Positions 1 through 42,346 of a DNA stretch of 64,000 bases are shown here, one piece after another. Under the pieces are notes generated by a model that saw nothing but the letters and a program-made list of their open reading frames with translations, had not been told where the DNA came from and ran no database searches. Numbering within the stretch: the stretch's first letter is position 1; every line of letters starts with the position of its first letter. Position numbers and translations under genes: made by a program. The stretch is from the NCBI GenBank assembly GCA_031288185.1, contig JAITRZ010000048.1, positions 31,307-95,306 of the forward strand, in the 5' to 3' direction. The DNA is from Coriobacteriales bacterium (GTDB lineage: Bacteria; Actinomycetota; Coriobacteriia; Coriobacteriales; UBA8131).

Positions 1-453
1 GTGGTGGGTGGCGCTACCCGCAGGGCACTTGGCGTTCCGGAGACGGCATTCGTTGACTTCGCGCAGACTACCCTGAGCACCACAGCGCAGACACTACCGT
101 GTGGGACTTTCTATGGCAGTGACGTGTTCTTTTTGCTTGGAGCCGGCCAACTCGCCTTTGGCTCACACATCGAAAATACTCATTTTGAGCTTTGCGGAAC
201 CTATGTAGTGAATCATGGCTTCGCGGCCAATGACATCGTAGAGGTAGATATAATGCGCACCAGCCCAGGAGTCTCCGAGGGTGTGTACAGGCGCATCTAC
301 CTGAAGGCCATCAACGCGCAGCTGGAGCAGTGGCCATCGTCTTACACCTTATACTCGCCAACGGGTGCCACATGGCGCGTCACAGCGCGCAACACAACCG
401 CAGCGCGAGGGATAATTGGGCTCACGTTTTTGCTCAAAGAAATACGATTATAG
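1..453 (+). CDS. Phage protein, C-terminal fragment (function unknown, possibly tail/structural)
   Basis: Open frame running in from the window edge, directly upstream of the lysis cassette. I recognise no motif. Confidence 0.4.
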   Translation: MVGGATRRALGVPETAFVDFAQTTLSTTAQTLPCGTFYGSDVFFLLGAGQLAFGSHIENTHFELCGTYVVNHGFAANDIVEVDIMRTSPGVSEGVYRRIYLKAINAQLEQWPSSYTLYSPTGATWRVTARNTTAARGIIGLTFLLKEIRL

Positions 454-466
454 GAAGGGAATCATT

Positions 467-712
467 ATGTGGACGAAAGAAAACTGGAAAGCAATCGCAG
501 AGCGCGCAATCAGCACGTTTGCCGAATCGCTGGTAATCGCCATAGGCGCTGGGCAAGTCGGGCTGCTGGATATAGACTGGCCGGCAGCCCTTGGCCTGGC
601 GGGCACTATGACGCTGCTATCTGTGCTCAAAAACCTCATCATCAAGCCCCCAGAGGTCACGGCACAGGCCGAGCTTGACACCTATAAAGCCCAGCGCGCT
701 AAGGAGGACTGA
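467..712 (+). CDS. Phage holin-like small membrane protein
   Basis: 81 aa from the ATG at 467, preceded by GGAAGGGA. Two hydrophobic helices (AESLVIAIGAGQVGLL, ALGLAGTMTLLSVL) and a charged C-terminal tail. Sits upstream of the endolysin. Confidence 0.6.
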   Translation: MWTKENWKAIAERAISTFAESLVIAIGAGQVGLLDIDWPAALGLAGTMTLLSVLKNLIIKPPEVTAQAELDTYKAQRAKED

Positions 713-1032
713 TGGATATTGATAGCGTGATGGGCGTTTTGGACAAACTCGAAGTAGTGGTGATATTTGCTATTCTCACTGCTTGTCTTGCCCTCAAAAA
801 ACACCTTGTTGCTTGGCTTAAAGCGGCCTTGTGCATCGACCAGCTAAGAGCAGAGACACTGCGCAACACCATCCTCATTAACATCCACAACACGCCAAAA
901 AAAGCTGAGGTCATCGAGGACGATTACACCGCGTACAAAGCCCTTGGCGGCAATGGATATCTGGATGGCGTAATCGCCGAGTGGCGCGAACACTGCGAAG
1001 GCGACCTAATTGCAAAGAGGATAGGCAAATAA
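712..1032 (+). CDS. Phage hypothetical membrane protein
   Basis: The ATG overlaps the holin TGA (TGATG), with AAGGAGG upstream. One TM helix (VVVIFAILTACLAL). Confidence 0.45.
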   Translation: MDIDSVMGVLDKLEVVVIFAILTACLALKKHLVAWLKAALCIDQLRAETLRNTILINIHNTPKKAEVIEDDYTAYKALGGNGYLDGVIAEWREHCEGDLIAKRIGK

Positions 1033-1048
1033 CCGAAAGGAGCATGAA

Positions 1049-1834
1049 ATGGGCAAAAGAGAAAAAATGGTGCAGTATGTAATTGACGCTTGCAACGATG
1101 CGAGCGTAGGCTACAGCCAGGTGCGCCGCTGGCGAGATCCTGACGTGGACTGCTCAAGTCTGATGTATCTGGCTGCCCATGCAGCGGGATACGCCATACC
1201 CCGGGCCATTGGCTCTGGATACACCGGCACCATGCGGCAAGACTTTGAGGCAGCTGGCTTTGTCTGGTACCCCTTTAATGGCCAGGTAAACGACTCTGAC
1301 CCCGGCGAAATCTACCTTAACACGCAAAACCACACCGAAATGTATGTCGGCAACGGGAAATTTGGCGGCGCGCACATCGACGAAAACGGCGGTGTCACAG
1401 GCGCCAGGGGTGGCGATCAGACCGGAAACGAGGTCTCGATGGTAAATGCTTACATCTACTCGCGAGGCTGGGATGGTGTCTTGGTGCCTCCAGACAGCGG
1501 CGGAGAATCCTCCGTGCCTTCTGCGCCTGCAAAGACCATAGACACTTTGGCCAAAGAAGTCATTGGGGGCCTTTGGGGCACAGGAGCCGAGCGTCGCCAG
1601 CGCCTGATTGATGCCGGATATGACTACGAGGCTGTGCAACGGCGTGTAAACGAAATCATCGCGGGCAGTAACGAGAGCGCCGGTAACGTCACACCAGCCC
1701 CTGATATAGATAGCATAGCCTGGGCAGTCATTAGGGGCGAGTATGGCAATGGCCAGTCGCGCATAGACGCTCTTGTATCGGCGGGATATGACGCCAGTGC
1801 CGTGCAGGCCAGCGTAAATGAGCTCCTGTCATGA
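1049..1834 (+). CDS. Phage endolysin: Pal-like (Amidase_5-type) Cys/His amidase domain plus two CW_7 (Cpl-7-type) cell-wall-binding repeats
   Basis: VGYSQVRRWRDPDVDCSSLMY ... NHTEMYVG resembles the Dp-1 Pal amidase N-terminal domain (recalled from memory). There are two C-terminal repeats: GGLWGTGAERRQRLIDAGYDYEAVQRRVNEI and RGEYGNGQSRIDALVSAGYDASAVQASVNEL. Confidence 0.85.
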   Translation: MGKREKMVQYVIDACNDASVGYSQVRRWRDPDVDCSSLMYLAAHAAGYAIPRAIGSGYTGTMRQDFEAAGFVWYPFNGQVNDSDPGEIYLNTQNHTEMYVGNGKFGGAHIDENGGVTGARGGDQTGNEVSMVNAYIYSRGWDGVLVPPDSGGESSVPSAPAKTIDTLAKEVIGGLWGTGAERRQRLIDAGYDYEAVQRRVNEIIAGSNESAGNVTPAPDIDSIAWAVIRGEYGNGQSRIDALVSAGYDASAVQASVNELLS

Positions 1835-2046
1835 AAAAGGGCACTTGGGCCTGGGCAGCGATGTTATCTATCGCACTACTTGTAGCAACTCTCACCTGCG
1901 CAATCATCATGTGCGCGAAAAAGAGCGAAGCCCAGCAACGCGTGATACAGGAGCAGGAGGCTAGACTGGACAACCTGAACGACACCCTCAAGTATGCCCT
2001 TGAGGCAGGTGATATACAGCGTCTCAGGCAGCAGATGATTGAATAG
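1831..2046 (+). CDS. Small phage membrane/coiled-coil protein
   Basis: Overlaps the endolysin stop (ATGA). N-terminal TM helix, then a charged helical tail. Confidence 0.4.
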   Translation: MKKGTWAWAAMLSIALLVATLTCAIIMCAKKSEAQQRVIQEQEARLDNLNDTLKYALEAGDIQRLRQQMIE

Positions 2047-2058
2047 AAAGGGAGCATA

Positions 2059-2292
2059 ATGGTACAGTCCACAACAGGCAAGGTAAACAAGGCCGGGCGA
2101 GGTTACATCACTGTTGCGACCTCAGACCCAACAAGAAGGCTTAATGTACGCTCGTCTCCGGAGGTGCCCGGAGGCGGCACCGACAATGTCGTGACTACGC
2201 TTGCTCACGGCACCCGCCGGCAGGTAAAGGACTATATAGAGGGCTGGGTGCGCATAAGAGAAGGCTGGGTAAGAGCCAGGTACGTGAAGTAG
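2059..2292 (+). CDS. Small SH3b-like domain protein (phage)
   Basis: GGAG upstream. The pattern LNVRSSP ... GWVRIREGWVRARYV is typical of bacterial SH3 domains. Confidence 0.45.
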   Translation: MVQSTTGKVNKAGRGYITVATSDPTRRLNVRSSPEVPGGGTDNVVTTLAHGTRRQVKDYIEGWVRIREGWVRARYVK

Positions 2293-2430
2293 CCATATCA
2301 ACGTCCGCAGGGCGCGCCAAACTCCTCCTCGTTGCGCCTAACAACAACCTCCTTGCGCCCTGTAGGACGAGATTAGCACATTATACACTCAGAGCAATTA
2401 GAGCGATATTGCTACTTTTTCGCCTTTTTC

Positions 2431-2480
2431 GTGTGCCATTGTGTGCCATTCGGTATCCAGATGTGCCATTGTGTGCCATT
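2431..2480. repeat. Four copies of (G/A)TGTGCCATT in two tandem pairs; candidate arm-type integrase/Xis sites at attR
   Basis: gtgtgccatt at 2431 and 2441, atgtgccatt at 2461, gtgtgccatt at 2471. They lie 85-130 bp from the tRNA-Lys 3' end. Confidence 0.6.
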
Positions 2481-2562
2481 TTTGAGGGGTATTATGTGGG
2501 ATTATATGCAAGTTTAAGGATCAATCTACCTGCAGAAACGTCGAAAATACCTGCAAAAACTA

Positions 2563-2638
<76 letters not shown>

Positions 2639-2726
2639 AATCAACACGCCTGGTTAGGCGCAAAGCACTTGTGCGACTGCTCCCTCCAAGGCGCAGTGTA
2701 TCTTAGCATAAGGTTCTCTCCTCTGG

Positions 2727-4384: not shown

Positions 4385-4475
4385 GAACTCGCTTGGTGCC
4401 CCGCATTACCGGAACACTCCTGTCGGTCGCGAACGAATCGCCTCTCAGCCATAATGACAGCTCCCGATGGGATAT
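4385..4475 (-). promoter_or_regulatory. TPP (THI-box) riboswitch upstream of thiT
   Basis: The minus strand reads CGGGAGCTGTCATTATGGCTGAGAGGCG ... GTGTTCCGGTAATGCGGGGCAC. The conserved GGCUGAGA element and a UAAUG-loop helix (GUGUUCC/GGGGCAC) are present. A thiamine transporter lies immediately downstream. Confidence 0.55.
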
Positions 4476-4631
4476 ATGCGCCGTTTCCGCGCGTGTGTTT
4501 TGAAACACGCGTGGCAGGCGTCCTGTTAAGGGCATGATAACACAGGTTTTGCGCGTGGGAGCAGGAGCATTTTGGGGCTTTCCGGCCAGGGTATCTAAAA
4601 CAGACCTCCAAATGAGGTGGCTTCAGGTCAG

Positions 4632-5252
4632 TTAACTGCTCATAAGGTGATACACCACGTAACCCGCATTTGGATCGAGCGTGCTTGTCCCATCTATCTT
4701 GATGGCATCATGCAGATCCTGGGTATACACGAGCCCACCCACACGGCTCAACCCGTAGGTCACCACAACCGTGGGATCTCCCGGTTTGCGACCTTCAGGA
4801 TAGACCATAAATGCGTCAGCGGTTAGCGCAGTCACATCCGAGCCAAGAGGGGCCACAAAGTGGACATGGAAGCGCATGTTGGTGGCTCCAAGCCCTATGA
4901 CATCGTTCATGAAAGTTCTCGAATACCCGGTAGCTAAGGTCGAAAGATCGGCGAGACTAAAGCGTTTTACAACAAACGCGGTGATGTCTGTCATCCCAGG
5001 CGCCCACCCGGTTGTGAAGTATCCTGCAGCATCCCCTGAACTGAATTTTCCGGCAGCATAGGCTTCATCAAGTACGGAGCGAGTTGCCTGCACAATGTCT
5101 CTAGCCTCGGCGATGTACTGCTCATCCTGCGCCTTCGCTATATAGCCCGTAAGCGCGGGGATGGCTATGGCGAGCAGTATGCCCAGGATAACAATAACAA
5201 CGATAAGCTCTACCAGGGTAAAACCGGTGCGTCTTTGTGAGGTTCCTCGCAC
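4632..5252 (-). CDS. Prepilin-type N-terminal cleavage/methylation-domain protein (pilin-like), locus 1
   Basis: Class III signal MRGTSQRRTG|FTLVELIVVIVILGILLAIAIPALTGYI (G-1, F+1, E+5). GTG at 5252 with GGGAGG 6 nt upstream. The frame stays open upstream to 5282 and, apart from one TGA, up to the ATG at 5606. Confidence 0.7.
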   Translation of the reverse strand: MRGTSQRRTGFTLVELIVVIVILGILLAIAIPALTGYIAKAQDEQYIAEARDIVQATRSVLDEAYAAGKFSSGDAAGYFTTGWAPGMTDITAFVVKRFSLADLSTLATGYSRTFMNDVIGLGATNMRFHVHFVAPLGSDVTALTADAFMVYPEGRKPGDPTVVVTYGLSRVGGLVYTQDLHDAIKIDGTSTLDPNAGYVVYHLMSS

Positions 5253-5369
5253 AGGGAGCCTCCCGTGAGCTCCGCAGAGCAAGGCACCCTGGTGAGGGGA
5301 TGCAGGGGAATCAACATTACTGAGGCGAGGAGGTCGAGGACTGTCTGAGCCGGCACCCCCTGTGCGAGG
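5245..5369. repeat. Perfect 12-bp inverted repeat, CCTCGCACAGGG (5245-5256) / CCCTGTGCGAGG (5358-5369), locus 1
   Basis: Read directly from the sequence. The arms are 101 bp apart. The pilin-proximal arm contains the GTG start candidate. Confidence 0.9.
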
Positions 5370-5372
5370 GGT

Positions 5373-5606
5373 TCAAGCTAAGACAGTGCGGCTTAAACCG
5401 TCACCAGGGGCAGTGCCCTCTGTGCGCGATGCCCACGCAGCCGGTGCTTCTTGTGTTCGAATTTGTGCTATCTCAGATAACAAAAAACCGCTGGGCGCAT
5501 AAGCCTGGGCGGCGTCTTTGGCGCGTACACTCGCGCCCTCATAGATGTTGGTGGATGGGAGAAGAGCTAAGCTACGAGCCCCCCCCCCCGGCGAAATTTG
5601 TGACAT
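5373..5606 (-). CDS. Leader ORF (77 codons) containing a G11 tract, upstream of pilin-like locus 1
   Basis: AAAGGAG-N6-ATG, then TCA CAA ATT TCG CC + G11. It translates as MSQISPGGGARSLALL...SRTVLA and ends at a TGA 3 nt before the inverted-repeat arm. Whether it is translated is unproven. Confidence 0.4.
   Translation of the reverse strand: MSQISPGGGARSLALLPSTNIYEGASVRAKDAAQAYAPSGFLLSEIAQIRTQEAPAAWASRTEGTAPGDGLSRTVLA
5579..5589 (-). repeat. Homopolymer tract, 11 C on plus strand (G11 on the coding strand), locus 1
   Basis: Counted directly: cc at 5579-5580 plus nine c at 5581-5589. Confidence 0.95.
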
Positions 5607-6010
5607 GTTTTACTCCTTTCAGATTGCCTGTTGTGGTGCCTGTCTTGGTGGTGCTTTGTCTTGATGCCTGCCTTACCTGCTTTTTCTGACAGCGCGTAGT
5701 GTAGCACAAGCGCAGGAGTGTGTCACCAGAGGTGTGTCACGCCTGTGCGTGGGTGGAGGCACATGGCGGATATATGCTACACTGGCGCTTTGTGTTGCTG
5801 AACTCTTAAGTGGTAGAACTGGCTTTGGCCTGGGGCCGCCTTATTGGCTGTTTCCCGTTTTTATGTTACAACGTTGCACAGGGCAGGAAGGCGCCACTGG
5901 TATCCTCTGACCATCGGGTGCCTCTCACCAAGGCCGTTGGTTGTGCCCGTTGCATCATGCTGGCCGCACCACAGTTTAAGACCAGGAAGAAATAGAGAAG
6001 GCACAGCATA

Positions 6011-23263: not shown

Positions 23264-23442
23264 TTGCTGAGGTCTTGTTTGACTATCCAAAGGCTCCTAT
23301 CTAAACGGGGGTGGGGCAAGGTAGGTACGGCTCATAGGCACATGGGCAAACAGGCGTGGGACAGGCGGACAAAAGGGGGCGAGAAGGGGGACTAGAGGGA
23401 CACGGTGATGCGCAACGTGTTCCTCTACAGCTCCCCTGTGCG

Positions 23443-23485: not shown

Positions 23486-25279
23486 CTATTGTTTCCAGTT
23501 AGCGTCAAGTGTACTCCAGTCTGCTCCGCTACTAAAGCTGGCGCCAAAGGTATCTTTATCGCTCGCAGGCACGTTATTGCCGTTGATGATACTTGTTGCC
23601 GTGCGGGTTTGTGCGGTGGCGATATCAAGGAAAGTGCCGGTGAAGACCGTCGCTTTATTGAGCTCAGTATCGCTCAGTTTTGGGAAGGTAAACACAGAAT
23701 TTACCTGAAAGATGAACACACCACTCATGGAACCCCGAGAAAACATCCGCTCACAAAAGTTGCTGTCTACGGTTGTTATGTTTTGGGGCAGGCTAAATAC
23801 ACTATTCATCGTAAAGGCAGTACCGTAGATATGAAACATGCCAAAGCAGAAGGTTTCTCCTGTAGACGTAATGCCCGAAGGGATAGTGAAAATTGAGTTC
23901 ATGTTAAAGGCGTCACCATCGGCATTGGAAAACATCATTGCGCAGAAACCACCTCCTACAGCACCTGTTATCTTTTGGGGCAGGTTAAAGATGCTATTCA
24001 TCGTAAAGGTGTCGCCCCACACGCCACGAAACATACCGCTGCAAAAATTTCCAGGTGCACCTGTTATCTTCTGGGGCAGGTTAAAGCTTGCACCCATGTT
24101 AAAAGCGGCTCCATTACATCCTAAAAACATATTGTTGCAAAAGTAAACTCCCACGGTATCTATGCTCTGGGGAATAGTAAAGGCATCTCCCATCGTAAAG
24201 AAGTTGCCGCCACAACCCCAAAACATCTCATTGGCGTAGTAGTTACCCGCGTTGTTTTCTGAGACATTCATACCCCTTTCAGGAAGGGGGCTTATAAGGG
24301 TGGCAACTTCAACGCTGGTGCCGGGTGTGTTCCGATACGCAAGGGCTCTAAGCCACTGATAGGTGTTTTCATCCCCTGTGACGTTTTCTTCTATCTTTAT
24401 GGTATGCTCACCGGGTGTGCCAACAGAAACAACAATGCCGGCGGTGTTATTGTTGCTCTGATAGGCGACGGGAAACCCGCTATCGACCGACACAAGCCAG
24501 TTGTATTTGCCTTCTGCACTCCCGCTACTAAATAAGCCGACTGTTGGTATGGTATGGGTGGTGCCCGCGGTCTGAACCATAAAGGAGAAAGACTCCAGAG
24601 TGGTGCCATAGGTTAGAGAGTCTTGTGAGGATTCATTTTTCAGGCGAAAACCGAGAAGTTTGTTGCTTTCATCAAAGCGTATGTCTACGATAGACCACTC
24701 AGTTGGGTCAAGATTGAGTTTGGCATATTCCTCTACAATCCCCAGCCAGGTTTCAGCAGTATAAGGAAAGAGGCTTGGTTTGTAAGGGGCAGGGGGATGG
24801 GTGAGGTTTTTGGCTGCGTCTGTGGCATTTGCTGGAGGTTTAACAAGGGCGCTGTTCCCTATAAGCCCATCAGCATATCTTTCTGTTGCCCAGGTTTGTA
24901 GCGCTTTTGCGATGGTGTCAGTGTAGGCTTGTTCTTTTATAGCTCCTGCCTTTTGTATATACCCTGTAAGCGCGGGTATGGCTATGGCGAGTAGGATGCC
25001 CAAAATGACAATGACAACTATCAGTTCTACGAGAGTAAAACCTTTAGGGTTAGTTTGTCTATGTATTTGTGGTGGGTCTTGTGCAGCGCCTCGCACAGGG
25101 GGCATCCGGTGAGTTCCACGGGCCGAGGAGCCCTGTTGATGGATCGAAGGGAATTTGCACGCAACGTTATCGAGGCAACGAGGACGAGGACTGTTTGAGC
25201 TGGCGTTCCCTGTGCGAGGTGCCCACGCGGCGACAGTCCCAGCGAGGTCGTTCTTTCCAAGAGATGAATCCGCATACAA
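23486..25279 (-). CDS. Pilin-like (class III signal) surface protein with a C-terminal array of roughly 26-residue repeats, locus 2
   Basis: NPKG|FTLVELIVVIVILGILLAIAIPALTGYI. About eight repeats of the form FCxxMFxGxxGxAFxMxSxFxLPQxITG span roughly 23644-24247. The open frame has no good start of its own at 25279. It joins the RBS-ATG at 25403 only if the G tract is 11, not 12. Confidence 0.75.
   Translation of the reverse strand: MYADSSLGKNDLAGTVAAWAPRTGNASSNSPRPRCLDNVACKFPSIHQQGSSARGTHRMPPVRGAAQDPPQIHRQTNPKGFTLVELIVVIVILGILLAIAIPALTGYIQKAGAIKEQAYTDTIAKALQTWATERYADGLIGNSALVKPPANATDAAKNLTHPPAPYKPSLFPYTAETWLGIVEEYAKLNLDPTEWSIVDIRFDESNKLLGFRLKNESSQDSLTYGTTLESFSFMVQTAGTTHTIPTVGLFSSGSAEGKYNWLVSVDSGFPVAYQSNNNTAGIVVSVGTPGEHTIKIEENVTGDENTYQWLRALAYRNTPGTSVEVATLISPLPERGMNVSENNAGNYYANEMFWGCGGNFFTMGDAFTIPQSIDTVGVYFCNNMFLGCNGAAFNMGASFNLPQKITGAPGNFCSGMFRGVWGDTFTMNSIFNLPQKITGAVGGGFCAMMFSNADGDAFNMNSIFTIPSGITSTGETFCFGMFHIYGTAFTMNSVFSLPQNITTVDSNFCERMFSRGSMSGVFIFQVNSVFTFPKLSDTELNKATVFTGTFLDIATAQTRTATSIINGNNVPASDKDTFGASFSSGADWSTLDANWKQ
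25089..25219. repeat. Perfect 12-bp inverted repeat, CCTCGCACAGGG (25089-25100) / CCCTGTGCGAGG (25208-25219), locus 2
   Basis: Read directly from the sequence. The arms are 107 bp apart. Confidence 0.9.
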
Positions 25280-25374
25280 AAAACCGCCTGGCGCACGGGC
25301 CTGGGCGGCATCTTTGGCGCGTACATTTGCGCCCTCATAGGTGCTGGTGGACTGAAGGAGAGCTAAGCTATGAG

Positions 25375-25386
25375 CCCCCCCCCCCC
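25375..25386 (-). repeat. Homopolymer tract, 12 C on plus strand (G12 coding strand), locus 2
   Basis: Counted directly: six c at 25375-25380 plus six c at 25381-25386. Confidence 0.95.
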
Positions 25387-25647
25387 GGCGAAATTTGTGA
25401 CATGTTTTACTCCTTTCAGATAGCCTGTCTTACCTGTCTTTTGTGATAGCACGTAGTATAGCACGCCGCAGGGAAGGGTGCATGCGGGACATTTTGTTTT
25501 AGCTTGGAGTATGTCACCTTGTAAATGGGGTACAGAAGAACCCATATTGCAGCACAAAAGAACCGACAGGCTGTGTCGCTGGTCGCTGCCGCGTCACCGT
25601 ACATGCTGTCTTTGCCTAGCGGCATAGGTGGGCGCTATAATGCGAGT

Positions 25648-30493: not shown

Positions 30494-32155
30494 CTATGAC
30501 AAATCCATGCGAAAAGCGGGGCGGACACCAAACCCGTTGAGCGCATTGTAGTTAGCGGCCAAGCCCGTAGTACCAAGAACCGCAATGACGCTGGAAGCGT
30601 CACCGCGCGGAGAGCGGAGCCAGTATTGAAAGAGAGTGTAAGGGTTTACCCCGGAGGTCTTTCGTGCGTTGGCATCAGCAAAGAGGACAACGCTTGAGCC
30701 GTAGAGGTTCTTGGTGAGATCCATGCTTGCGGCATCGGTGGCAGGGTAGTCCAGCGCGCGAAACACCTCTTCCTGGCTGAGAAAGAACAGCTTCTGGTTG
30801 GTGAGTTCATAGTAGCCGTTGTGTCCGCTGTCAGAGGCACCTCCTGTCTTATAGGGCGCTGTGCGTGCGTCACTAAAGCCTATTCTTGTATAGAGGGTGG
30901 TATCGAGTATCTTTGCCTTGATGTCTGTGAGGTTGTCATAGCTGTAGGCATAGGTGTTGCTATTGAGGGACGCTCTGAGCGTGCTGCCATCCCAGCGGAT
31001 GTCGGTATCCCAGTTGGTGCTGGGATAGTTGATTGATTTGGCATCTATGATGTGTTCTGCGATGACCAGGACATCAGCGTCGCTTTCCTTGTGTAAGATA
31101 CGCCAGTCATAGCCGTTGGCGGCAAAGGTGTCGCCACGCTTCAGGTTCTTGGAGGGCTGGCGGCTCGCCTGAACATCAAAGGTTATGGTGTAGGAATCTG
31201 CGGTGAGAGTGGCCATGCCGGTGGCGCCTGCCGGGATGGACACAGAGGCTGAGGCACCTGATGGTATCAGTGCAGCGCCGGTTGAGCCCGCGTTAAGCTG
31301 CCAGCCTCCTGCAGGAGGTTCACTGGCCGTGAAGTAGCGCACTGTCGGGTATCCCGCAGGGCTCGTGAGGCTGATAATATGGCTCAGGGAGGTCAGATTA
31401 GAGCCGCCTTCACTGTAGAAAAGGTCATAGGGCATCTCCCCGTAGTCTGCAAAGTCACTTATGTCCTTTGTGTTTATGATGCGCAGGCTCAAGAGTTTGT
31501 TTTTGCTATCAAAGGCAACATTCACCAGTCTCCAGTCACCCGTGCGCAGATCTAACTTTGAGTACGAGGCGACAATACCCTCCCAGCTCTCTTCATCTGT
31601 CGTACCACCGTAGGAGGCAGGGTCAACCGGGTCAGAGGCATTTTCCAAGGGGTCAGCGGCATCAGGAACTACTAGGGCTATCTGTCCTATGAGGTTTTGT
31701 GCCAGTCTCTCTGCGGCCCAGGTTTGGATGGCTTTAACAGAGGTGTTGAGGTCTGCTTCTTTTTTTACGCTTCCTGCTTTTCCTATGTATCCCGTAAGGG
31801 CAGGTATGGCTATAGCAAGGAGGATACCTAAGATAACTATCACTACGATAAGTTCTACTAAGGTAAAACCTTCAGGGTGAGCTATCCTGCGGGTGTATGG
31901 AGGGTCTTGTGTAGCCCCTCGCACAGGGAACGTCCGGTGAGTTCCGCAGACCGAGGAGCCAGGTTGTGGGGCCGCAGGATAGGTAGAGCTACCAAGGCGA
32001 CGAGGTCGCAGAGTGTTTGAGTCGGCATCCCCTGTGTGAGGAGCCCACGCTAAGACGGTGCGGCTTAAACCGGCACCAGGGGCAGTTCTCCCTGTGCGTG
32101 GGGCCCACGCGGCCAGTGCTTCTTGTGTTCCCATTTGTGCTATCTCAGATAACAA
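30494..32155 (-). CDS. Pilin-like (class III signal) surface protein with a DUF6273-like C-terminal domain, locus 3
   Basis: HPEG|FTLVELIVVIVILGILLAIAIPALTGYI. The N-terminal roughly 170 aa after the signal are homologous to locus 2. The C-terminus (WRILHKE...LFFLSQEEV...YWLRSPRG...GVRPAFRMDL) resembles DUF6273 (recalled). The open frame joins the RBS-ATG at 32279 only if the G tract is 11. Confidence 0.75.
   Translation of the reverse strand: MLSEIAQMGTQEALAAWAPRTGRTAPGAGLSRTVLAWAPHTGDADSNTLRPRRLGSSTYPAAPQPGSSVCGTHRTFPVRGATQDPPYTRRIAHPEGFTLVELIVVIVILGILLAIAIPALTGYIGKAGSVKKEADLNTSVKAIQTWAAERLAQNLIGQIALVVPDAADPLENASDPVDPASYGGTTDEESWEGIVASYSKLDLRTGDWRLVNVAFDSKNKLLSLRIINTKDISDFADYGEMPYDLFYSEGGSNLTSLSHIISLTSPAGYPTVRYFTASEPPAGGWQLNAGSTGAALIPSGASASVSIPAGATGMATLTADSYTITFDVQASRQPSKNLKRGDTFAANGYDWRILHKESDADVLVIAEHIIDAKSINYPSTNWDTDIRWDGSTLRASLNSNTYAYSYDNLTDIKAKILDTTLYTRIGFSDARTAPYKTGGASDSGHNGYYELTNQKLFFLSQEEVFRALDYPATDAASMDLTKNLYGSSVVLFADANARKTSGVNPYTLFQYWLRSPRGDASSVIAVLGTTGLAANYNALNGFGVRPAFRMDLS
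31917..32101. repeat. Inverted repeat set at locus 3: CCTCGCACAGGG (31917-31928) versus CCCTGTGTGAGG (32030-32041) and CCCTGTGCGTGG (32090-32101)
   Basis: Read directly from the sequence. Each distal arm has one mismatch, and the upstream unit is duplicated. Confidence 0.85.
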
Positions 32156-32250
32156 AAAACCGCCTGGCGCACGGGCCTGGGCGGCGTCTTTGGCGCGTAC
32201 ACTCGCGCCCTCATAGGTGTTAGTGGATGGGAGAAGAGCGAAGCTATGAG

Positions 32251-32262
32251 CCCCCCCCCCCC
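32251..32262 (-). repeat. Homopolymer tract, 12 C on plus strand (G12 coding strand), locus 3
   Basis: Counted directly: ten c at 32251-32260 plus two c at 32261-32262. Confidence 0.95.
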
Positions 32263-32686
32263 GGCGAAATTTGTGACATGATTTGCTCCTTTCAGATTAA
32301 CTGTTTTGATGTCTGTTTTGGTAATGCGTGTCTTAGTGGTGCCTGTCTTGGTGCCTATCTTGCCTGTCTTTTGCGGCAGCACGCAGTGTAGCACAGGCGT
32401 GGGCAAAAGGACACAAGCGCCTAGGGACGTGTCCCACGCGACACAAGGCAAAGAGATGCGCACAGGGAAGCGGCACACCGACGGGGAGAAGCATGCGAGG
32501 GGGGGGCGGTCGCCTGTGTTGCAAGGTTGTCAGCCCTGCCAGAGGAGCGCACGCCCTGTTTTTGATGATGCCAACAACAAGGGCCGGATACAGAGCGCCG
32601 CCTTGGGGAAGTTATTTTTAAGTACCATTCAAACGGGCCGGTTTTGCCCCTCGCGTGACAGTTCCCCAAGGCGACTGCGCGGCTAC

Positions 32687-34401: not shown

Positions 34402-35217
34402 TCAGATGCTGGTAAGGGCGATGTCGCCCAGTGAGCGGTCGATATCCCGCAGGTCGGCTGTTAGCGTATGCTCCTGAAAGCCTTTGGCAGAGATGGTGAG
34501 CTGATACATGTCGGGCGCTATCTGGTCAAACTTGAAGTCACCAAGGTCATCGGTCATGAGCGTGAGCTCTGTGCCATCTGAGGCACGAGCCTTCACCTCG
34601 GCACCTATCAGCAGCTCGTCAGCCTTCAGATCGACCACAGAGCCAGCCATAAAGCGCCGGGGCAGATTGCGGTAATAGACCCTGGCACCACAGCCGTCCA
34701 TCGCCGGCAATGTCTCCGCGTCGCGCAAAAGATCGCCAAATTCACTTTCTTCCGCATAGCGAATAACCTCATGCGCGCAGGCATCAACGCAGCGCGGAAC
34801 CTCCCAACCGTTGTCAAGCAGATGGGCGCAGCCTGTGCATTTCTGGGCGATGTTCAGCTGCTCGTTAAAGTAGATGACGCCAAGCGGGCAGGCATCCAGA
34901 CAGTCCCTGCAGCCTGTGCATTTCTGCGGTGAGAGAACAATCAGGCCGTCGTCGCGCCGCTCAAACGCATTTGAGGAACACGCCGCCGCACAGGCAGGAT
35001 CAGCGCAATGAGAACAAAATATCGGTGTATGGGCCACGCGCACCCAGGGTACCTGTCCGCGCTCCTTTTCATCCAACCGCATCCAGAACTGCCCGGTATC
35101 GGGCTGGGCTGCGGCATAGGGCTGCCAGTCTTGTCCGCAATGCTCGTCTTTGCAGACAATCTGGCAGTTGTAACAACCGTTGCAGTGCGATAGGTCAACA
35201 AGAAATACCTTAGTCAT
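34402..35217 (-). CDS. 4Fe-4S cluster beta subunit with a C-terminal carboxypeptidase-regulatory-like beta-barrel (pyrogallol transhydroxylase BthL-like)
   Basis: Several Cys clusters (CNGCYNCQIVC, CSHCADPAC, CTGCRDCLDACP, CTGCAHL..C). The C-terminal region GSVVDLKADELLIGAEVKA...YQLTISAKGF is Ig-like. The gene is translationally adjacent to the alpha subunit. Confidence 0.8.
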   Translation of the reverse strand: MTKVFLVDLSHCNGCYNCQIVCKDEHCGQDWQPYAAAQPDTGQFWMRLDEKERGQVPWVRVAHTPIFCSHCADPACAAACSSNAFERRDDGLIVLSPQKCTGCRDCLDACPLGVIYFNEQLNIAQKCTGCAHLLDNGWEVPRCVDACAHEVIRYAEESEFGDLLRDAETLPAMDGCGARVYYRNLPRRFMAGSVVDLKADELLIGAEVKARASDGTELTLMTDDLGDFKFDQIAPDMYQLTISAKGFQEHTLTADLRDIDRSLGDIALTSI

Positions 35218-35219
35218 GG

Positions 35220-37820
35220 TTATACCTCCTCAACAATGCGTCCGGCGGCCGAGAGCCCGGTTTCGGGACAGTAGGGACGCGCGAAAGCTTCAGGATATTT
35301 TTGAGCGAGCTCGTCTAAATCGACCTTTTTAATGCCCACGAGAAAACCATTGGTAACCTCACCGGGAGCGTTTTTTGAGGTCGGAGCGGTGGGACAGATA
35401 AGGTTGTTGGCACCGCCGCGATCCAGTCCGCCAACGCCATACTCAAGAATGTCAGTACGCGCGCCATGATCCTGATACAACACGCCGGGCATGATACGCT
35501 CCGTTACCAACACCCCACCAAGAACCCGGCCACGTTCGTTGAACAGCTCGGCAATATCTCCGTCAACCAGACCGAGCTGTGCGGCATCCTGCGGATGCAC
35601 CCAGATTGGTTCATAGAGATAGCCGTCAGCCCCGCGCACCTTGCAGGTGCGTATCTCACGCGTCCAGGGAATGTCATCGTGCTGAGCGTGTACCCGCCAG
35701 CGCGGATGGTTGCTCATCAGCAGATAGGGGTACTTCTTTGCGCGCTCAGAGCTGATGCGCTCCTGGTGACCGTCCCCTTCCTCAATCCACTTGGGCACCG
35801 GCCCGCGAATTTTGTCTCCAGGGTAGTTTGCCGCCAGGCCGGTGGCATAAAACTCAAGTTTGCCCGTAGGGGTGTTAAGGGGAAAATCTTCAGGGTGCTC
35901 GTAGAATAGCTGCAGGCCAACAGGCTTCTCCTCCCAGTCCTTCTCGGTGGGAAAACAGATGAACTTTTGCTCCTGAAACAGCTCAAAGGGGTATTCATCA
36001 AGCGGGGCACCGCAGCGTTCATAGCCGTATTTGACGTCTTCTTCGGGCGTGCGGCCGCCGGTGTAGCGCTCGAAGAGTCCCGTGTAGGGGCCGCCGAGCA
36101 CTTCCAACTTCTTTGCCACCTCGCCTACCGCCTGATAGTCATCAAGCGACTCGACCACTGGCTCAATGGCCTGCTCCTCAATGGCGACCATGGTAAACTG
36201 ACCGTTATAGATGTCTGTGCAGACATCCATCGTCTCAAAAACAGTGGAGATGGGCAAAATGATGTCGGCCAGGAGTGTGTCGTTTTCCATCCAGGGGTGC
36301 TGCACCAGGTAAAACTCAATGCTGGAGTCCCGCACTGCGTCCTGATAGGCGTTGCCGCCGTTCCAACAGGTTTCCCAGCAGGGTGTATCGCTCCAGATCA
36401 TGTGAACGCGTGGGCCATCGCCCGGGTAAACGAAGGTTAGAAACTGGTCTTCTTTGGGCATCGAGCAAACCACATGACCGCTCCAGGAGACCGGCGGGTT
36501 GGTGATGGCTTCAGGCGTTAACGTCTTGGGAAAGAAGTAACGCGGCGCGCTCATCTTCCAGCCGTGAAAGATGTCAGCAAACATCGGATAGATCGATGAA
36601 CGCGGCACAGGGTTGATGTCGCGCAGCACCCATTCGATAAACTTGAACTGGTTGACACCCGGCTTGCCCAGGCCCTGCATACCCAGTAGACAGACCTCAA
36701 GGCGGGCGGGTTCGTGGGAAAAACAGGAGCGGATATAGCCGCCGCCGTTGCAGTGAGCGATGGTGATGGCGTGTTTGCCCCAGTAGCGCGCGAACGCCTT
36801 GATGCGGTAGGAGGGAACGCCGCACTTCTCTGCAGCCCATTCAGGAGTTTTGGGGATGCCGTCCTCATGACCCAATACGTAGTATTCAAACCAGTCAAAA
36901 CCCTCGACATGCGTAGCCACGTATTCCTTGTCGTAGAGATCCTCAGTCATCCAGACGTAAGCGATGGCCAGCTGAAACGCGGCATCGGTATTGGGCAGGA
37001 TGGGTATCCAGCGATCAGCGTGAACCGCATTGGTGTAGTTGACATCCGGCGCGATGTGTATCTGCTTGAGGCCGATGTCAGTAAACCAGAAGCAGAGCCG
37101 GCTGGGTTGCAGGCCGCCCCAGCCCCACGGAGTGGTCTCCGGGTCAGCTCCCCAAAAGAGCACTGCGTCGGAGTTTTGGGCGGCATCAAGTATCACGTTG
37201 TCCTGGGGATTTTGCTGACCGTGAAACTCACAGCCCCAGACATGCTTGGCACCCCAGTACCAGCCTTCCCAACTGTCGGGTTGGCGCGCCTGAACCGTAT
37301 AGTTGCCCGGCTCAGGACCGATGCAGTCGAGCATCATCGACTGGCAGCCATGGCCGCCGCTGATAACCTTGGTCTCGCCGTGGCCCTCACCCTGCACCAA
37401 TATCGCTCGGCCGCCGTATGTTTGGATGACGCGGTCGACCTCACTGGCGATGATGCTTGTTGCCTCGTCCCAACTGATGCGGACGTAATTGCTGATACCA
37501 CGATTTTGCGGATTGCGCTTGCCGTCTGGATCCCAATCCACGCGCTTCAGCGGATACGGCACGCGGTTGGGTGAGGATGCCCGCTTCTTGTAGGCCAGCG
37601 ACAACGGCGGCAACAGGCTCTTCAACTTGGGATCAAAGCGATGCCCGCGAACGTCAAAGCTCCAGGCGTTGAGGCTCTCCTCGGTATAAAACTCGCTGTA
37701 ATGCAGCGGCCTGATGCGGACTATCTTACCGTCCATGACATCGACATTGGCCAGATTGGTGCCATTGCCAAAGCCGTTACTGCTGAGATTTTGAATTACG
37801 GTTTTATCCTTGATTTTCAC
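35220..37820 (-). CDS. Bis-MGD molybdopterin oxidoreductase, pyrogallol-phloroglucinol transhydroxylase (AthL)-like alpha subunit, no Tat signal
   Basis: DSWEGWYWGAKHVWG resembles the P. acidigallici AthL DSWEGWHWGGMHMWG (recalled), with similarity continuing through YPLKRVDWDP, WIPILPNTDAA and ITERIMPGV. GTG at 37820 with GGAGG 6 nt upstream. There is no RR motif. Confidence 0.85.
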   Translation of the reverse strand: MKIKDKTVIQNLSSNGFGNGTNLANVDVMDGKIVRIRPLHYSEFYTEESLNAWSFDVRGHRFDPKLKSLLPPLSLAYKKRASSPNRVPYPLKRVDWDPDGKRNPQNRGISNYVRISWDEATSIIASEVDRVIQTYGGRAILVQGEGHGETKVISGGHGCQSMMLDCIGPEPGNYTVQARQPDSWEGWYWGAKHVWGCEFHGQQNPQDNVILDAAQNSDAVLFWGADPETTPWGWGGLQPSRLCFWFTDIGLKQIHIAPDVNYTNAVHADRWIPILPNTDAAFQLAIAYVWMTEDLYDKEYVATHVEGFDWFEYYVLGHEDGIPKTPEWAAEKCGVPSYRIKAFARYWGKHAITIAHCNGGGYIRSCFSHEPARLEVCLLGMQGLGKPGVNQFKFIEWVLRDINPVPRSSIYPMFADIFHGWKMSAPRYFFPKTLTPEAITNPPVSWSGHVVCSMPKEDQFLTFVYPGDGPRVHMIWSDTPCWETCWNGGNAYQDAVRDSSIEFYLVQHPWMENDTLLADIILPISTVFETMDVCTDIYNGQFTMVAIEEQAIEPVVESLDDYQAVGEVAKKLEVLGGPYTGLFERYTGGRTPEEDVKYGYERCGAPLDEYPFELFQEQKFICFPTEKDWEEKPVGLQLFYEHPEDFPLNTPTGKLEFYATGLAANYPGDKIRGPVPKWIEEGDGHQERISSERAKKYPYLLMSNHPRWRVHAQHDDIPWTREIRTCKVRGADGYLYEPIWVHPQDAAQLGLVDGDIAELFNERGRVLGGVLVTERIMPGVLYQDHGARTDILEYGVGGLDRGGANNLICPTAPTSKNAPGEVTNGFLVGIKKVDLDELAQKYPEAFARPYCPETGLSAAGRIVEEV

Positions 37821-37833
37821 CGCGTTCCTCCAA

Positions 37834-42078: not shown

Positions 42079-42346
42079 AACTGACCTCCCATCCTTACTG
42101 CTGTTGTCCATCATTTTTCTTAAGCAATCAGGCAAATGTCTTGACAGGCGCAGATGTCTTAAGCCCAGTAGCCGACAGCAACCGACGGCAACCCGACATA
42201 CGCCCTTCGCTCAAGCTTTTTGCCTTTGCTCAGGTTCTATAATAGGAAGCGTTCAAAAAAACGCTTCAAACTCTAAGTTAGAATCCGCCGTACTGCCCTC
42301 AACTTTCCTCCTACTTAGAGTTGTATCCTGGCAAAATGGAGCAACT

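What the first reader, a model, noticed from the sequence alone, without database searches (positions are those of the whole stretch)
5245..5703. Locus 1: a G11 tract keeps the leader ORF open, but it ends at a TGA (TGG in the paralog) 3 nt before a stem arm that can mask the pilin GTG start
Seen:
- The ATG at 5606 with G11 (5579-5589) gives a 77-codon ORF ending ...LSRTVLA-TGA (stop at 5373-5375).
- In locus 3 the homologous codon is TGG (..RTVLAWAPHTG..).
- The leader ORF and the pilin ORF are in the same frame (both at coordinate mod 3 = 2) and are separated only by that TGA.
- Three nt after the stop comes CCTCGCACAGGG (5369-5358 on the coding strand). It is perfectly complementary to CCCTGTGCGAGG (5256-5245).
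- The second arm contains the GTG at 5252. That GTG sits 6 nt after GGGAGG and begins a canonical short prepilin, MRGTSQRRTG|FTLVEL.

Inference, alternative 1: translational coupling. A ribosome terminating at the TGA melts the upstream arm and unmasks the pilin start, so leader translation, set by the G-tract length, gates pilin translation.

Inference, alternative 2: a decayed copy of the fused arrangement (W to stop) that now depends on the internal GTG.
Basis: partly seen in the sequence, partly recalled or inferred. Interest (0 to 1): 0.85.

Follow-up and report, generated by a model that had tools for sequence, protein, structure and literature searches.

The report
Split copy of phase-variable long-leader pilin
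Locus 1 is one of three copies of an unusual pilin gene family from an uncultured gut-type Coriobacteriales bacterium, in which a run of G's near the start switches the gene on or off; this copy has picked up a stop codon that cuts the long leader from the pilin, so the pilin probably now starts at an internal GTG hidden in a conserved RNA helix.

Summary
Locus 1 is not a stand-alone design. It is a derived, split copy of a gene family whose normal form is one ORF: strong SD, ATG, a poly-G tract (G10-G15) 6-12 codons in, a 60-138-aa disposable leader, then the prepilin cleavage site G|FTLVEL. That form occurs in loci 2 and 3 (G12, off), in other Coriobacteriales MAGs and in JGI metagenome contigs. 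In two relatives no other in-frame start exists. The TGA replaces a conserved Trp codon. The 12-nt inverted repeat is real and inherited. It forms robustly in loci 2 and 3 and in a distant relative, L084, where four pairs changed on both sides. In locus 1 it covers the GTG and a locus-specific GGGAGG. My reading: the G-tract acts through frame, probably also through attenuation, and in locus 1 through partial unmasking of the GTG. The coupling step is plausible but unproven.

The parts
5698..5726 (-). Promoter-like site: -35 GTGACA (5726-5721), 17-nt spacer, TG-extended -10 TACACT (5703-5698)
   Evidence: it is the only sigma-70-like site found in 4400-6000. The extended -10 box TGCTAYAMT is conserved in loci 2 and 3 and in L001, L003 and L081.
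5613..5618 (-). Shine-Dalgarno AAGGAG of the leader ORF, 6 nt before the ATG
   Evidence: CTGAAAGGAG(T/C)AAA(A/T)CATGTCACAAATTTCGCC is nearly invariant in loci 1-3 and L081.
5373..5606 (-). Leader ORF, 77 codons plus TGA (ATG 5606-5604; stop 5375-5373)
   Evidence: It is homologous to the N-terminal 77 residues of the fused leaders of loci 2 and 3.
5579..5589 (-). G11 homopolymer tract, the frame switch
   Evidence: G11/G14 keep the leader frame open. G12 stops after 11 codons and G10/G13 after 12-13 codons.
5567..5574 (-). Two TAG stops, one in each off frame, just after the tract (TAG 5574-5572 and 5569-5567), within the conserved CTC(G/A)TAGCTTAG
   Evidence: The off-frame stops lie 79-84 nt before the T-run. 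The same arrangement is found in locus 2, L001, L003 and L005.
5482..5513 (-). Intrinsic-terminator-like hairpin (5513-5487, dG -11.2 kcal/mol) plus T6 (5487-5482) inside the leader ORF
   Evidence: Equivalent hairpin/T-run elements occur in loci 2 and 3, L001, L003, L004, L005, L082, L083 and L084, with different stem sequences. The element sits in a different codon phase in window and relative loci.
5373..5375 (-). TGA stop at the position of a conserved TGG (Trp)
   Evidence: Trp is present in locus 2, locus 3, P0001, P0003, P0004 and P0062. TGA is the commonest stop codon in the window.
5358..5369 (-). Arm A (CCTCGCACAGGG) of the long-range helix; pairing can extend 3' to about 5348
5259..5264 (-). 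GGGAGG Shine-Dalgarno, specific to locus 1, 6 nt before the GTG, within the 3' strand of the extended helix
   Evidence: Loci 2 and 3 and L084 have CCGGA(T/C) at this position.
5245..5256 (-). Arm B (CCCTGTGCGAGG), containing the GTG start at 5252-5250
   Evidence: It is invariant in loci 1-3 and covaries with arm A in L084.
4632..5252 (-). Pilin-like ORF, 206 aa from the GTG. Leader MRGTSQRRTG; predicted cleavage between Gly 5225-5223 and Phe 5222-5220; stop TAA 4634-4632
   Evidence: The body belongs to a large family (556 hits; 12,101 at E<=0.001).
4604..4618 (-). Terminator-like hairpin at the 3' end of the pilin gene
23486..25403 (-). Paralogous locus 2: ATG 25403, G12 25386-25375 (off), T-run 25283-25278, arm A 25219-25208, arm B 25100-25089. 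G11/G14 would give a single 638/639-aa ORF
30494..32279 (-). Paralogous locus 3: ATG 32279, G12 32262-32251 (off), T-run 32159-32154, arm A homolog 32041-32030 (one mismatch), arm B 31928-31917. G11/G14 would give a single 594/595-aa ORF with a C-terminal DUF6273 domain

Best explanation
Locus 1 is a split copy of a phase-variable, long-leader prepilin gene. SHOWN: the family's normal form is a single ORF that runs from an SD-preceded ATG, through a poly-G tract a few codons in, through a 60-138-aa hydrophilic leader that evolves almost neutrally as protein, to the prepilin peptidase site G|FTLVEL. Tract length sets the frame: one length class gives the full ORF, and the other two stop within 1-10 codons in most loci. 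Most leaders carry a terminator-like hairpin plus T-run 91-126 nt after the tract. Window-type leaders also carry a conserved, covarying long-range helix whose 3' strand contains an in-frame GTG. Locus 1 has an in-frame G11, a TGG-to-TGA change 115 nt after the T-run and 3 nt before the helix, and a locus-specific GGGAGG before the GTG. INFERRED: when the tract is in frame, ribosomes follow RNA polymerase through the hairpin and prevent termination. When it is out of frame, they drop off early, the terminator forms, and the gene is silenced at the RNA level as well as the protein level. In the untranslated state the helix hides the internal GTG. In locus 1 the leader ribosomes now stop at the foot of the helix and loosen it, and the strengthened SD lets the pilin start at the GTG with an ordinary 10-aa leader. 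The G-tract would therefore still gate the locus-1 pilin, through attenuation plus partial unmasking rather than through reading frame.
For: Fused architecture: with G11/G14, loci 2 and 3 give single ORFs of 638 and 594 aa. Fused leader-pilin proteins exist in another MAG (P0001, P0003) and in JGI data (P0062, P0039, P0100, P0025). The same cassette occurs in L001, L003, L005 and L081-L084. L005 and L081 have no in-frame ATG/GTG/TTG between the tract and G(-1), so their pilin can be made only through the tract. Pilins from other taxa have 5-15-aa leaders and no tracts. The frame is kept open (0, 0 and 1 stops against 1-6 in other frames; P about 0.023 per locus in shuffles). Leader dN/dS is 0.67-0.83 with even codon-position changes, against 0.06-0.17 in the adjacent pilin N-terminus. 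Tract lengths of G10-G15 occur between conserved flanks. Both off-frame stops lie 79-113 nt before the T-run in 5 of 6 loci. A hairpin plus T5-6 is present in 9 of 10 loci with different stems (dG -11 to -15), and the GCGGT-T element sits in codon phase 2 in window loci and phase 1 in relatives, so it is conserved as nucleotides. No second promoter was found between the T-run and the GTG. Helix: P(A:B) is 0.76-1.0 in loci 2 and 3 and L084 in all contexts. The L084 fold has z=-4.5. 85.7% of cells are paired against 32-55% when slid, and 4 pairs changed on both sides. In locus 1, with only post-TGA RNA free, the GTG is 1% unpaired; a ribosome at the TGA raises this to 26% and the SD from 25% to 42%. 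The GGAGG is unique to locus 1. There is no accelerated divergence after the TGA.
Against: Everything is in silico. By energy alone, the terminator-like hairpins are not exceptional for this GC-rich DNA: 14-23% of T-runs in the window have a comparable hairpin under my permissive criteria, and z-scores are -0.1 to -2.0. L081 lacks the element entirely. In locus 3 one off frame reads through the T-run. Formal covariation in the terminator stem could not be scored because MAFFT cannot align the variable upper stems. The helix covariation rests on 4 sequences (shuffle controls 16/500 and 32/500). In locus 1 the A:B pairing probability falls to 0.01 or less once 120 nt or more of free upstream RNA is included. 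A ribosome at the TGA should unwind only about the first 4 nt of arm A. In the other MAG, some paralogs have PQQG or PVQG in place of PVRG, so the GTG and arm B are not universal. Copies of the arm motif upstream of the predicted promoters are not explained by an RNA role. Tract lengths and the TGA could not be checked against reads.
Confidence: 0.5

Rival explanations
1. Dead copy. The TGA simply inactivates locus 1. The GTG, the GGGAGG and the helix are inherited or incidental, and no pilin is made from this locus.
For: The TGA interrupts an ORF that is continuous in every other family member seen. The GTG is masked with P>0.8 in all folding contexts. The leader evolves almost neutrally, so chance creation of GGAGG is not impossible.
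Against: The 206-aa pilin ORF is intact. There is no excess of locus-1-specific substitutions after the TGA. Consecutive nonsynonymous changes turn the otherwise conserved THRTF motif into AHGRL and create a full GGAGG at ideal spacing from the GTG. The GTG gives a canonical basic 10-aa prepilin leader.
Confidence: 0.22
2. Pure translational coupling, as the first reader proposed (alternative 1). The stop codon is placed so that terminating ribosomes melt arm A, and this alone gates the pilin. The arrangement is an evolved design rather than a by-product.
For: The helix is real and masks the SD and GTG. The TGA lies 3 nt before arm A. Blocking the ribosome footprint raises GTG accessibility 0.01 to 0.26. 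There is precedent in MS2 coat-replicase and IF3-L35-L20 coupling (PMC9894550).
Against: The helix is present, and more stable, in loci 2 and 3 and L084, where ribosomes read through it, so it was not built around a stop. The ribosome reaches only the first few pairs, and the GTG pairs with arm A positions 6-8. In longer contexts, blocking arm A has no effect on accessibility in the model. This explanation ignores the terminator-like element upstream.
Confidence: 0.12
3. UGA read-through. Near-cognate tRNA-Trp occasionally reads the TGA and regenerates exactly the ancestral fused prepilin at a low level, so locus 1 is a down-tuned but otherwise normal family member.
For: The stop replaces a Trp codon, and the whole frame downstream is open. 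From general knowledge, UGA is the leakiest stop codon in bacteria, and when misread it is mostly read as Trp.
Against: Nothing in the sequence indicates enhanced read-through. TGA is the commonest genuine stop here (22 of 46). Rfam found no recoding element. The expected yield is low. It does not explain the locus-specific SD.
Confidence: 0.08
4. Assembly or sequencing artefact. The TGA, or the G11 call, is a consensus error, and locus 1 is really an ordinary fused, phase-variable copy.
For: Long G homopolymers are error-prone and heterogeneous in populations. The TGA is a single base away from TGG. L004 shows homopolymer assembly junk in a related MAG.
Against: The TGA is not in or next to a homopolymer. 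The locus-specific GGGAGG and the surrounding substitutions are independent differences that fit a split gene.
Confidence: 0.06
5. The repeated CGCACAGG-type motif acts at the DNA level, as a binding site for a regulator or recombinase, rather than or as well as an RNA helix.
For: There are 12 copies in the window against 3.5 expected (0 of 100 shuffles reached 12), and 9 are in or beside the three loci. These include copies upstream of the predicted promoters of loci 1 and 3 and one just 3' of locus 2.
Against: The compensatory changes in L084 preserve complementarity rather than motif sequence. The motif is absent from L001-L005. No recombinase or obvious regulator lies next to the loci.
Confidence: 0.1

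Closest known systems
Neisseria opa genes (and, from my own knowledge, pilC): repeat tracts in the leader/signal-peptide coding region
   Same: There are several paralogous surface-protein genes scattered in the genome, each with a slippage-prone repeat a few codons after the start. The repeat number sets the reading frame and so switches the gene on or off (opa CTCTT repeats in the leader-peptide region: PMC3960869). Here the equivalent is a G10-G15 tract 6-12 codons after the ATG, between conserved flanks.
   Different: The leader here is a class III (prepilin) leader of 60-138 aa rather than a Sec signal peptide. It also carries a terminator-like hairpin and, in window-type copies, a start-masking helix. 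The organism is an uncultured Gram-positive Coriobacteriales lineage. Switching has not been observed directly.
Leader-peptide transcription attenuation (trp/his/leu-type operons; general knowledge)
   Same: A short stretch translated from a strong SD lies upstream of an intrinsic-terminator-like hairpin plus U-run, and the ribosome's position relative to the hairpin would decide read-through.
   Different: I identified no alternative antiterminator hairpin and no regulatory codons. The signal would be a heritable frameshift rather than tRNA charging. The terminator lies inside the ORF of the regulated protein itself rather than in a separate leader.
MS2 coat-replicase and E. coli IF3-L35-L20 translational coupling
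   Same: A downstream start site is hidden by pairing with an upstream segment, and translation of the upstream cistron exposes it (PMC9894550). In locus 1, arm A/arm B hide the GGGAGG and GTG, and the leader ORF ends at the foot of the helix.
   Different: In locus 1 the upstream arm lies just after the stop, not inside the upstream ORF, so only partial opening is expected. The helix is inherited from copies in which both 'cistrons' are a single ORF.
Clostridioides difficile flagellar switch acting through Rho in the leader RNA
   Same: The phase state is read out after transcription initiation, by premature termination within a long 5' leader (PMC7446863).
   Different: That switch is a DNA inversion with Rho-dependent termination. 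Here it is a homopolymer frameshift with a candidate intrinsic terminator. Rho may contribute in C-rich, G-poor leaders such as L081.
Modular type IV pilins of Streptococcus sanguinis (PilB, PilC)
   Same: A pilin N-terminal module is fused to a large grafted C-terminal domain (PMC10191384; PMC8179133, listed). Locus 2 (597 aa, repeat-rich) and locus 3 (DUF6273) have this build.
   Different: The review calls the S. sanguinis major-pilin leaders very long, but from my own recollection they are about 18 aa, far shorter than the 60-138 aa here. The window genes are orphan, monocistronic and apparently phase-variable.

Membership tests
Type IV pilin-like proteins (class III signal peptide) | N-terminal motif G/A | F-x-L-x-E followed by about 20 hydrophobic residues | tested here: met
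   Pfam PF07963 E=2.4e-8 to 3.5e-7 and TIGR02532 in all three proteins.
Type IV pilin-like proteins (class III signal peptide) | Hydrophilic, usually short, basic leader peptide ending in Gly/Ala | tested here: met
   From the GTG, locus 1 gives MRGTSQRRTG|. The fused copies end in Gly but have leaders of 60-138 aa, well beyond the 5-15 aa of the other taxa and the leaders the review calls 'very long'.
Type IV pilin-like proteins (class III signal peptide) | Prepilin peptidase and assembly machinery in the same genome | not testable with these tools
   None was seen among the window ORFs scanned. The rest of the genome is not available.
Simple-sequence-repeat contingency locus (translational phase variation) | Long repeat tract inside the 5' coding region, whose length sets the frame between a full ORF and an early stop | tested here: met
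Simple-sequence-repeat contingency locus (translational phase variation) | Tract-length polymorphism between copies or relatives with conserved flanks | tested here: met
   G11, G12, G12 and G14 occur with identical ATGTCACAAATTTCGCC / CTC(A/G)TAGCTTAG flanks. G10-G15 occur in other relatives. Both on and off states are represented.
Simple-sequence-repeat contingency locus (translational phase variation) | Reversible, high-frequency length change within a population | not testable with these tools
   No reads and no isolates are available.
Ribosome-controlled transcription attenuation | Intrinsic terminator (GC-rich hairpin plus U-run) between the leader start and the regulated coding sequence | tested here: inconclusive
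   Present in 9 of 10 loci at a conserved position with different stems. Energies are unremarkable for this GC content, and the element is absent in L081.
Ribosome-controlled transcription attenuation | Mutually exclusive antiterminator structure | not tested
   I did not search for one. The model proposed here needs only ribosome occupancy.
Ribosome-controlled transcription attenuation | Termination depends on leader translation | not testable with these tools
   This needs Term-seq or reporters. The geometry is compatible: the off-frame stops lie 79-113 nt upstream of the T-run.
Translational coupling by a start-masking long-range helix | Conserved helix that sequesters the SD and start of the downstream cistron | tested here: met
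   In locus 1 the pairing is context-sensitive.
Translational coupling by a start-masking long-range helix | Upstream arm lies where translating or terminating ribosomes disrupt it | tested here: inconclusive
   Arm A starts 3 nt after the TGA. A realistic footprint covers about 4 of its 12 nt. Modelled GTG accessibility rises 0.01 to 0.26.
Translational coupling by a start-masking long-range helix | Downstream expression depends on upstream translation | not testable with these tools
   This needs reporters, toeprinting or Ribo-seq.

The most novel reading that the evidence does not exclude
A clade of Coriobacteriales uses an exceptionally long (60-138 aa), disposable prepilin leader as a built-in expression cassette. 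A poly-G switch sets the frame, a ribosome-sensitive intrinsic terminator converts the frame state into a transcriptional on/off, and a conserved helix locks an internal start. This would be the first case I am aware of in which repeat-tract phase variation is read out by leader-peptide attenuation, and the longest class III leaders I know of. Locus 1 would be a natural 'split' variant showing that the parts can work as a separate leader ORF plus a short-leader pilin.
Probability: 0.3. Interest if true: 0.8.

Novelty: new variant of a known kind. Interest (0 to 1): 0.55.

Why it matters
Repeat-tract phase variation is well known in a few Gram-negative pathogens but, in the literature I searched, has not been described in Coriobacteriia or linked to type IV pilin-like adhesins there. 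If the cassette works as inferred, it shows how a heritable frameshift can be amplified into tight transcriptional silencing by a terminator placed inside the coding leader. It would also show that prepilin leaders can be tenfold longer than the 5-15 aa seen in other taxa, because they are cytoplasmic and are cleaved off. The family is large in gut-type metagenomes, so this may be a common way for these uncultured bacteria to vary their surface adhesins. Locus 1 offers a naturally dissected version for experiments.

Tried and rejected
1. Scans of genome contigs and metagenome contigs with leader peptide patterns, and of metagenome contigs with the start-cassette DNA pattern, found nothing. The window-type leader is absent from those collections.
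2. Contig look-ups failed for P0001, P0002, P0003, P0005, P0006, P0009, P0062 and P0131. I therefore have no DNA for the other MAG's paralogs or for the closest locus-1 ortholog.
3. Rfam at gathering threshold found only three tRNAs: no known leader, riboswitch or recoding element.
4. An alternative genetic code or selenocysteine at the TGA was rejected. TGA ends 22 of 46 large ORFs, the codon replaces Trp in a near-neutral leader, and no recoding element was found.
5. No second promoter was found between the T-run and the GTG.
6. Decay after the TGA was not seen in a relative-rate count.
7. The profile search was dominated by the pilin body, because P0062's C-terminus entered the profile. It added only one new leader-type hit (P0218).
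8. RNAalifold on the terminator elements was uninformative, because MAFFT misaligns the variable upper stems.
9. The upstream WAPRTG unit as arm B's partner in locus 3 (16 nt, 94%) was rejected, since its pairing probability is about 0 in partition-function folds.
Full report
CHECK OF THE OBSERVATION. The ATG is at 5606 behind a strong AAGGAG, and the G11 tract is at 5589-5579. The 77-codon ORF ends ...LSRTVLA-TGA at 5375-5373. CCTCGCACAGGG at 5369-5358 starts 3 nt after the stop, and its perfect reverse complement CCCTGTGCGAGG is at 5256-5245. That second arm contains GTG 5252, 6 nt after GGGAGG, which opens MRGTSQRRTG|FTLVEL. The pilin-type N-terminal domain is confirmed (PF07963, TIGR02532). 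The leader and pilin share one frame, and the TGA is the only stop in it; the other five frames carry 1-6 stops. A perfect 12-nt inverted repeat within 150 nt is expected about 0.7 times per window, and 7 are seen, several of them gene-end terminators.

THREE PARALOGS, AND WHAT IS NORMAL FOR THE FAMILY. The window holds three copies of the same 5' cassette: ATGs at 5606, 25403 and 32279, with tracts G11, G12 and G12. With G11 or G14, loci 2 and 3 become single ORFs of 638 and 594 aa. These run from the ATG through a leader of about 120-136 aa straight into G|FTLVEL. With G12 they stop after 11 codons. Both have TGG where locus 1 has TGA.

The only database proteins with this leader are partial genes from one other Coriobacteriales MAG, and two of them are fused in frame (P0001, P0003). 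A search anchored on the pilin N-terminus found the same layout in other Coriobacteriales MAGs: an extended -10 box, SD, ATG, 6-12 codons, G11-G15, a leader of 60-99 aa, then G|FTLVEL. L003 and L005 are in frame and L001 is out of frame. The 75 pilin genes from other taxa in that search have 5-15-aa leaders and no tracts.

The locus-1 pilin body belongs to a large family (556 hits; 12,101 at E<=0.001). Of 111 listed members with a recognisable cleavage motif, 28 are called with leaders of 30-140 aa, though gene-caller start sites are imprecise. P0062 is among them: a window-type leader fused to a locus-1-like pilin, with Trp at the TGA position. DNA retrieved for four of these members (L081-L084) shows the same cassette, and L081 shares the UTR, SD, ATGTCACAAATTTCGCC and CTCATAGCTTAG with the window. 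In L005 and L081 there is no in-frame ATG, GTG or TTG between the tract and G(-1), so their pilin can be made only from the upstream ATG through the tract.

The fused long-leader ORF is therefore the family norm, and locus 1 is a Trp-to-stop derivative. The host is an uncultured Coriobacteriales lineage (best LepA match 83% identity) that uses the standard code (TGA ends 22 of 46 large ORFs).

HOW THE LEADER EVOLVES. Between paralogs the leader has dN/dS 0.67-0.83, with changes spread evenly over codon positions. The adjacent 41 pilin codons have dN/dS 0.06-0.17 and nearly saturated synonymous sites. Yet the leader frame stays open (P about 0.023 per locus in shuffles), and the indels visible in the alignments sum to multiples of three. 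The leader thus looks translated but almost indifferent to its peptide sequence. Its nucleotides are better conserved than synonymous sites next door. This fits a cytoplasmic leader that is cleaved off (PMC10191384) and whose job lies in the nucleic acid.

A GC-rich hairpin followed directly by T5-T6 sits 91-126 nt after the tract in 9 of the 10 loci for which I have DNA. In locus 1 the hairpin is at 5513-5487 and the T6 at 5487-5482. Hairpin energies are -11 to -15 kcal/mol. The basal stem is shared, but the upper stems differ, and L083's stem is entirely different. The GCGGT-T element sits in codon phase 2 in the window and phase 1 in the relatives, so it is conserved as nucleotides. Its peptide trace, [VAP]F[LF][RC], recurs in many more family members. 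Directly after the tract, the conserved CTCATAGCYTAR supplies stops in both off frames, 79-113 nt before the T-run in 5 of 6 loci.

I infer a ribosome-sensitive terminator. With the tract in frame, ribosomes follow the polymerase and suppress it. With the tract out of frame, they leave early and the hairpin forms. The weaknesses are these. By energy such hairpins are not rare in this GC-rich DNA (14-23% of T-runs). L081 lacks the element and is instead C-rich and G-poor. One off frame of locus 3 reads through the T-run.

In locus 1 the TGA lies 115 nt after the T-run, and no second promoter is predicted before the GTG. The tract could therefore still gate pilin transcription there.

THE HELIX. 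Folded locally, arm A pairs with arm B in all three paralogs. The test came from L084, a distant relative with a different leader start but a window-type second half. Its arms are GCGCGCACAAAGGG and CCCTTGTGCGCGC. The fold is a helix of about 24 bp with z=-4.5 (0 of 200 shuffles). On the four-sequence alignment, 85.7% of cells pair against 32-55% when the partner is slid, and four pairs changed on both sides while staying paired. The shuffle controls reached the observed values 16/500 and 32/500 times. The pairing probability is 0.76-1.0 in loci 2 and 3 and L084 whatever the flanking context. The helix is therefore real and older than the TGA.

Locus 1 is the exception. Its A:B probability is 0.79 in a short excerpt but 0.01 or less once 120 nt or more of free upstream RNA is included, although arm B remains paired (>0.8). 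If ribosomes cover the leader, so that only post-TGA RNA is free, A:B forms and the GTG is 99% masked. A ribosome parked at the TGA, unwinding to +7 past the stop, raises the unpaired probability of the GTG from 0.01 to 0.26 and of the SD from 0.25 to 0.42. In the other MAG some paralogs have PQQG or PVQG instead of PVRG, so arm B and the GTG are not universal.

WHAT IS SPECIAL ABOUT LOCUS 1. Besides the TGA, locus 1 alone has a full GGAGG before the GTG. The conserved THRTF(P)V motif has become AHGRLPV through consecutive nonsynonymous changes, while loci 2 and 3 and L084 keep CCGGA(T/C). The pilin ORF is intact, and the stretch after the TGA shows no excess of locus-specific substitutions (15, against 15 and 13). 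This favours a working split gene over a decaying one, but it does not prove expression.

MECHANISM, WITH CONFIDENCE. I rate the steps as follows:
- Locus 1 derives from the fused, tract-controlled form: about 0.9.
- The family is phase-variable through the tract: about 0.8. This rests on architecture and on G10-G15 polymorphism between conserved flanks; switching itself was not observed.
- The hairpin/T-run attenuates transcription in the off phase: about 0.5.
- The helix is a functional RNA element that hides the internal start when the leader is not translated: about 0.5.
- The locus-1 pilin is made from the GTG and still depends on leader translation: about 0.4.

The rival explanations are a dead copy, pure evolved coupling, UGA read-through by tRNA-Trp, an assembly error, and a DNA-level role for the motif. 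One further caveat from general knowledge: RNA polymerase can slip on long homopolymers, which would blur the on and off states.

COMPARISON AND NOVELTY. The switch principle matches Neisseria opa (repeats in the leader-peptide coding region; PMC3960869) and, from my own knowledge, pilC. The attenuation idea resembles leader-peptide attenuation, and the post-initiation read-out resembles the C. difficile flagellar switch (PMC7446863). The masking helix resembles MS2 and IF3-L35-L20 coupling (PMC9894550). Loci 2 and 3 resemble modular pilins (PMC10191384). Literature searches found nothing on pilin phase variation in Coriobacteriia or Eggerthella, and nothing on class III leaders of this length. 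I file it as a new variant of a known kind. The locus-1 detail is a single derived mutation, and the interest lies in the family-wide cassette that it exposes.

Noticed in passing
window 5742-5753, 32459-32469, 23435-23442: Extra copies of the arm motif (CGCACAGG core) lie upstream of the predicted promoters of loci 1 and 3 and just 3' of the locus-2 stop. There are 12 copies in the window against 3.5 expected, and 9 are at the three loci. An RNA helix does not explain them.
   Followed up: partly
window 32496-32511 versus 32248-32263: A C8/G8 run with flanks upstream of the locus-3 promoter is 81-91% complementary to the locus-3 G12 tract region, 232 nt away (repeat finder I2/I5/I6). Its significance is unknown.
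   Followed up: no
window 5621-5697, 25420-25450, 32300-32370: The 5' UTRs are CA-rich and built from 12-nt AAGACAGGCACC-like units whose copy number varies between loci (three tandem copies in locus 3). L081 shares the same UTR.
   Followed up: no
L001 about 1380-1390, L003 about 1483-1492, L082 about 1710-1720, L084 about 1515-1525: A conserved SD-like TCTGGGGAG (peptide SGE) follows the T-run in several relatives. In L082 it precedes an in-frame GTG by 6 nt, inside a local hairpin GGGACAGG...CCTGTCC. This may be a second example of a masked internal start.
   Followed up: partly
L081 2525-2655: This leader variant has no hairpin/T-run and is strongly C-rich and G-poor (C 34%, G 11% in the 70 nt after the tract). 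It looks like a Rho-loading region and could be an alternative route to off-phase termination.
   Followed up: no
window 23486-25279 and 30494-32155: Loci 2 and 3 are large modular pilins. Locus 2 has a C-terminal array of repeats of roughly 26 aa (F-N-M-x-x-x-F-x-L-P-Q-K-I-T...F-C-x-x-M-F) with no Pfam hit. Locus 3 ends in DUF6273. All three genes are orphan and monocistronic among housekeeping genes.
   Followed up: partly
window 1-2640: The window starts with what looks like a prophage end: small holin-like ORFs and an endolysin with CW_7 repeats (1049-1834), next to tRNA-Lys (2563-2638).
   Followed up: no
window 32140-32279 (locus 3, G13/G10 frame): In locus 3 the second off-frame stop after the tract is lost (TTAG to TTCG). 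That frame runs 46 codons, through the T-run, and stops 20 nt after it. One off state of locus 3 might therefore escape attenuation.
   Followed up: partly
L004 125-184: A 44-nt C run and a C11 run sit near the start of this contig, where the cassette's ATG and G-tract would be. This is probably an assembly artefact at the homopolymer, and a reminder that tract lengths in MAGs are unreliable.
   Followed up: no
window 35220-37916, 39844-42135, 34402-35217, 58689-59933: Several molybdopterin oxidoreductases and Fe-S proteins are present. From general knowledge, this fits the respiratory reductase richness of Eggerthellaceae-like Coriobacteriia.
   Followed up: no
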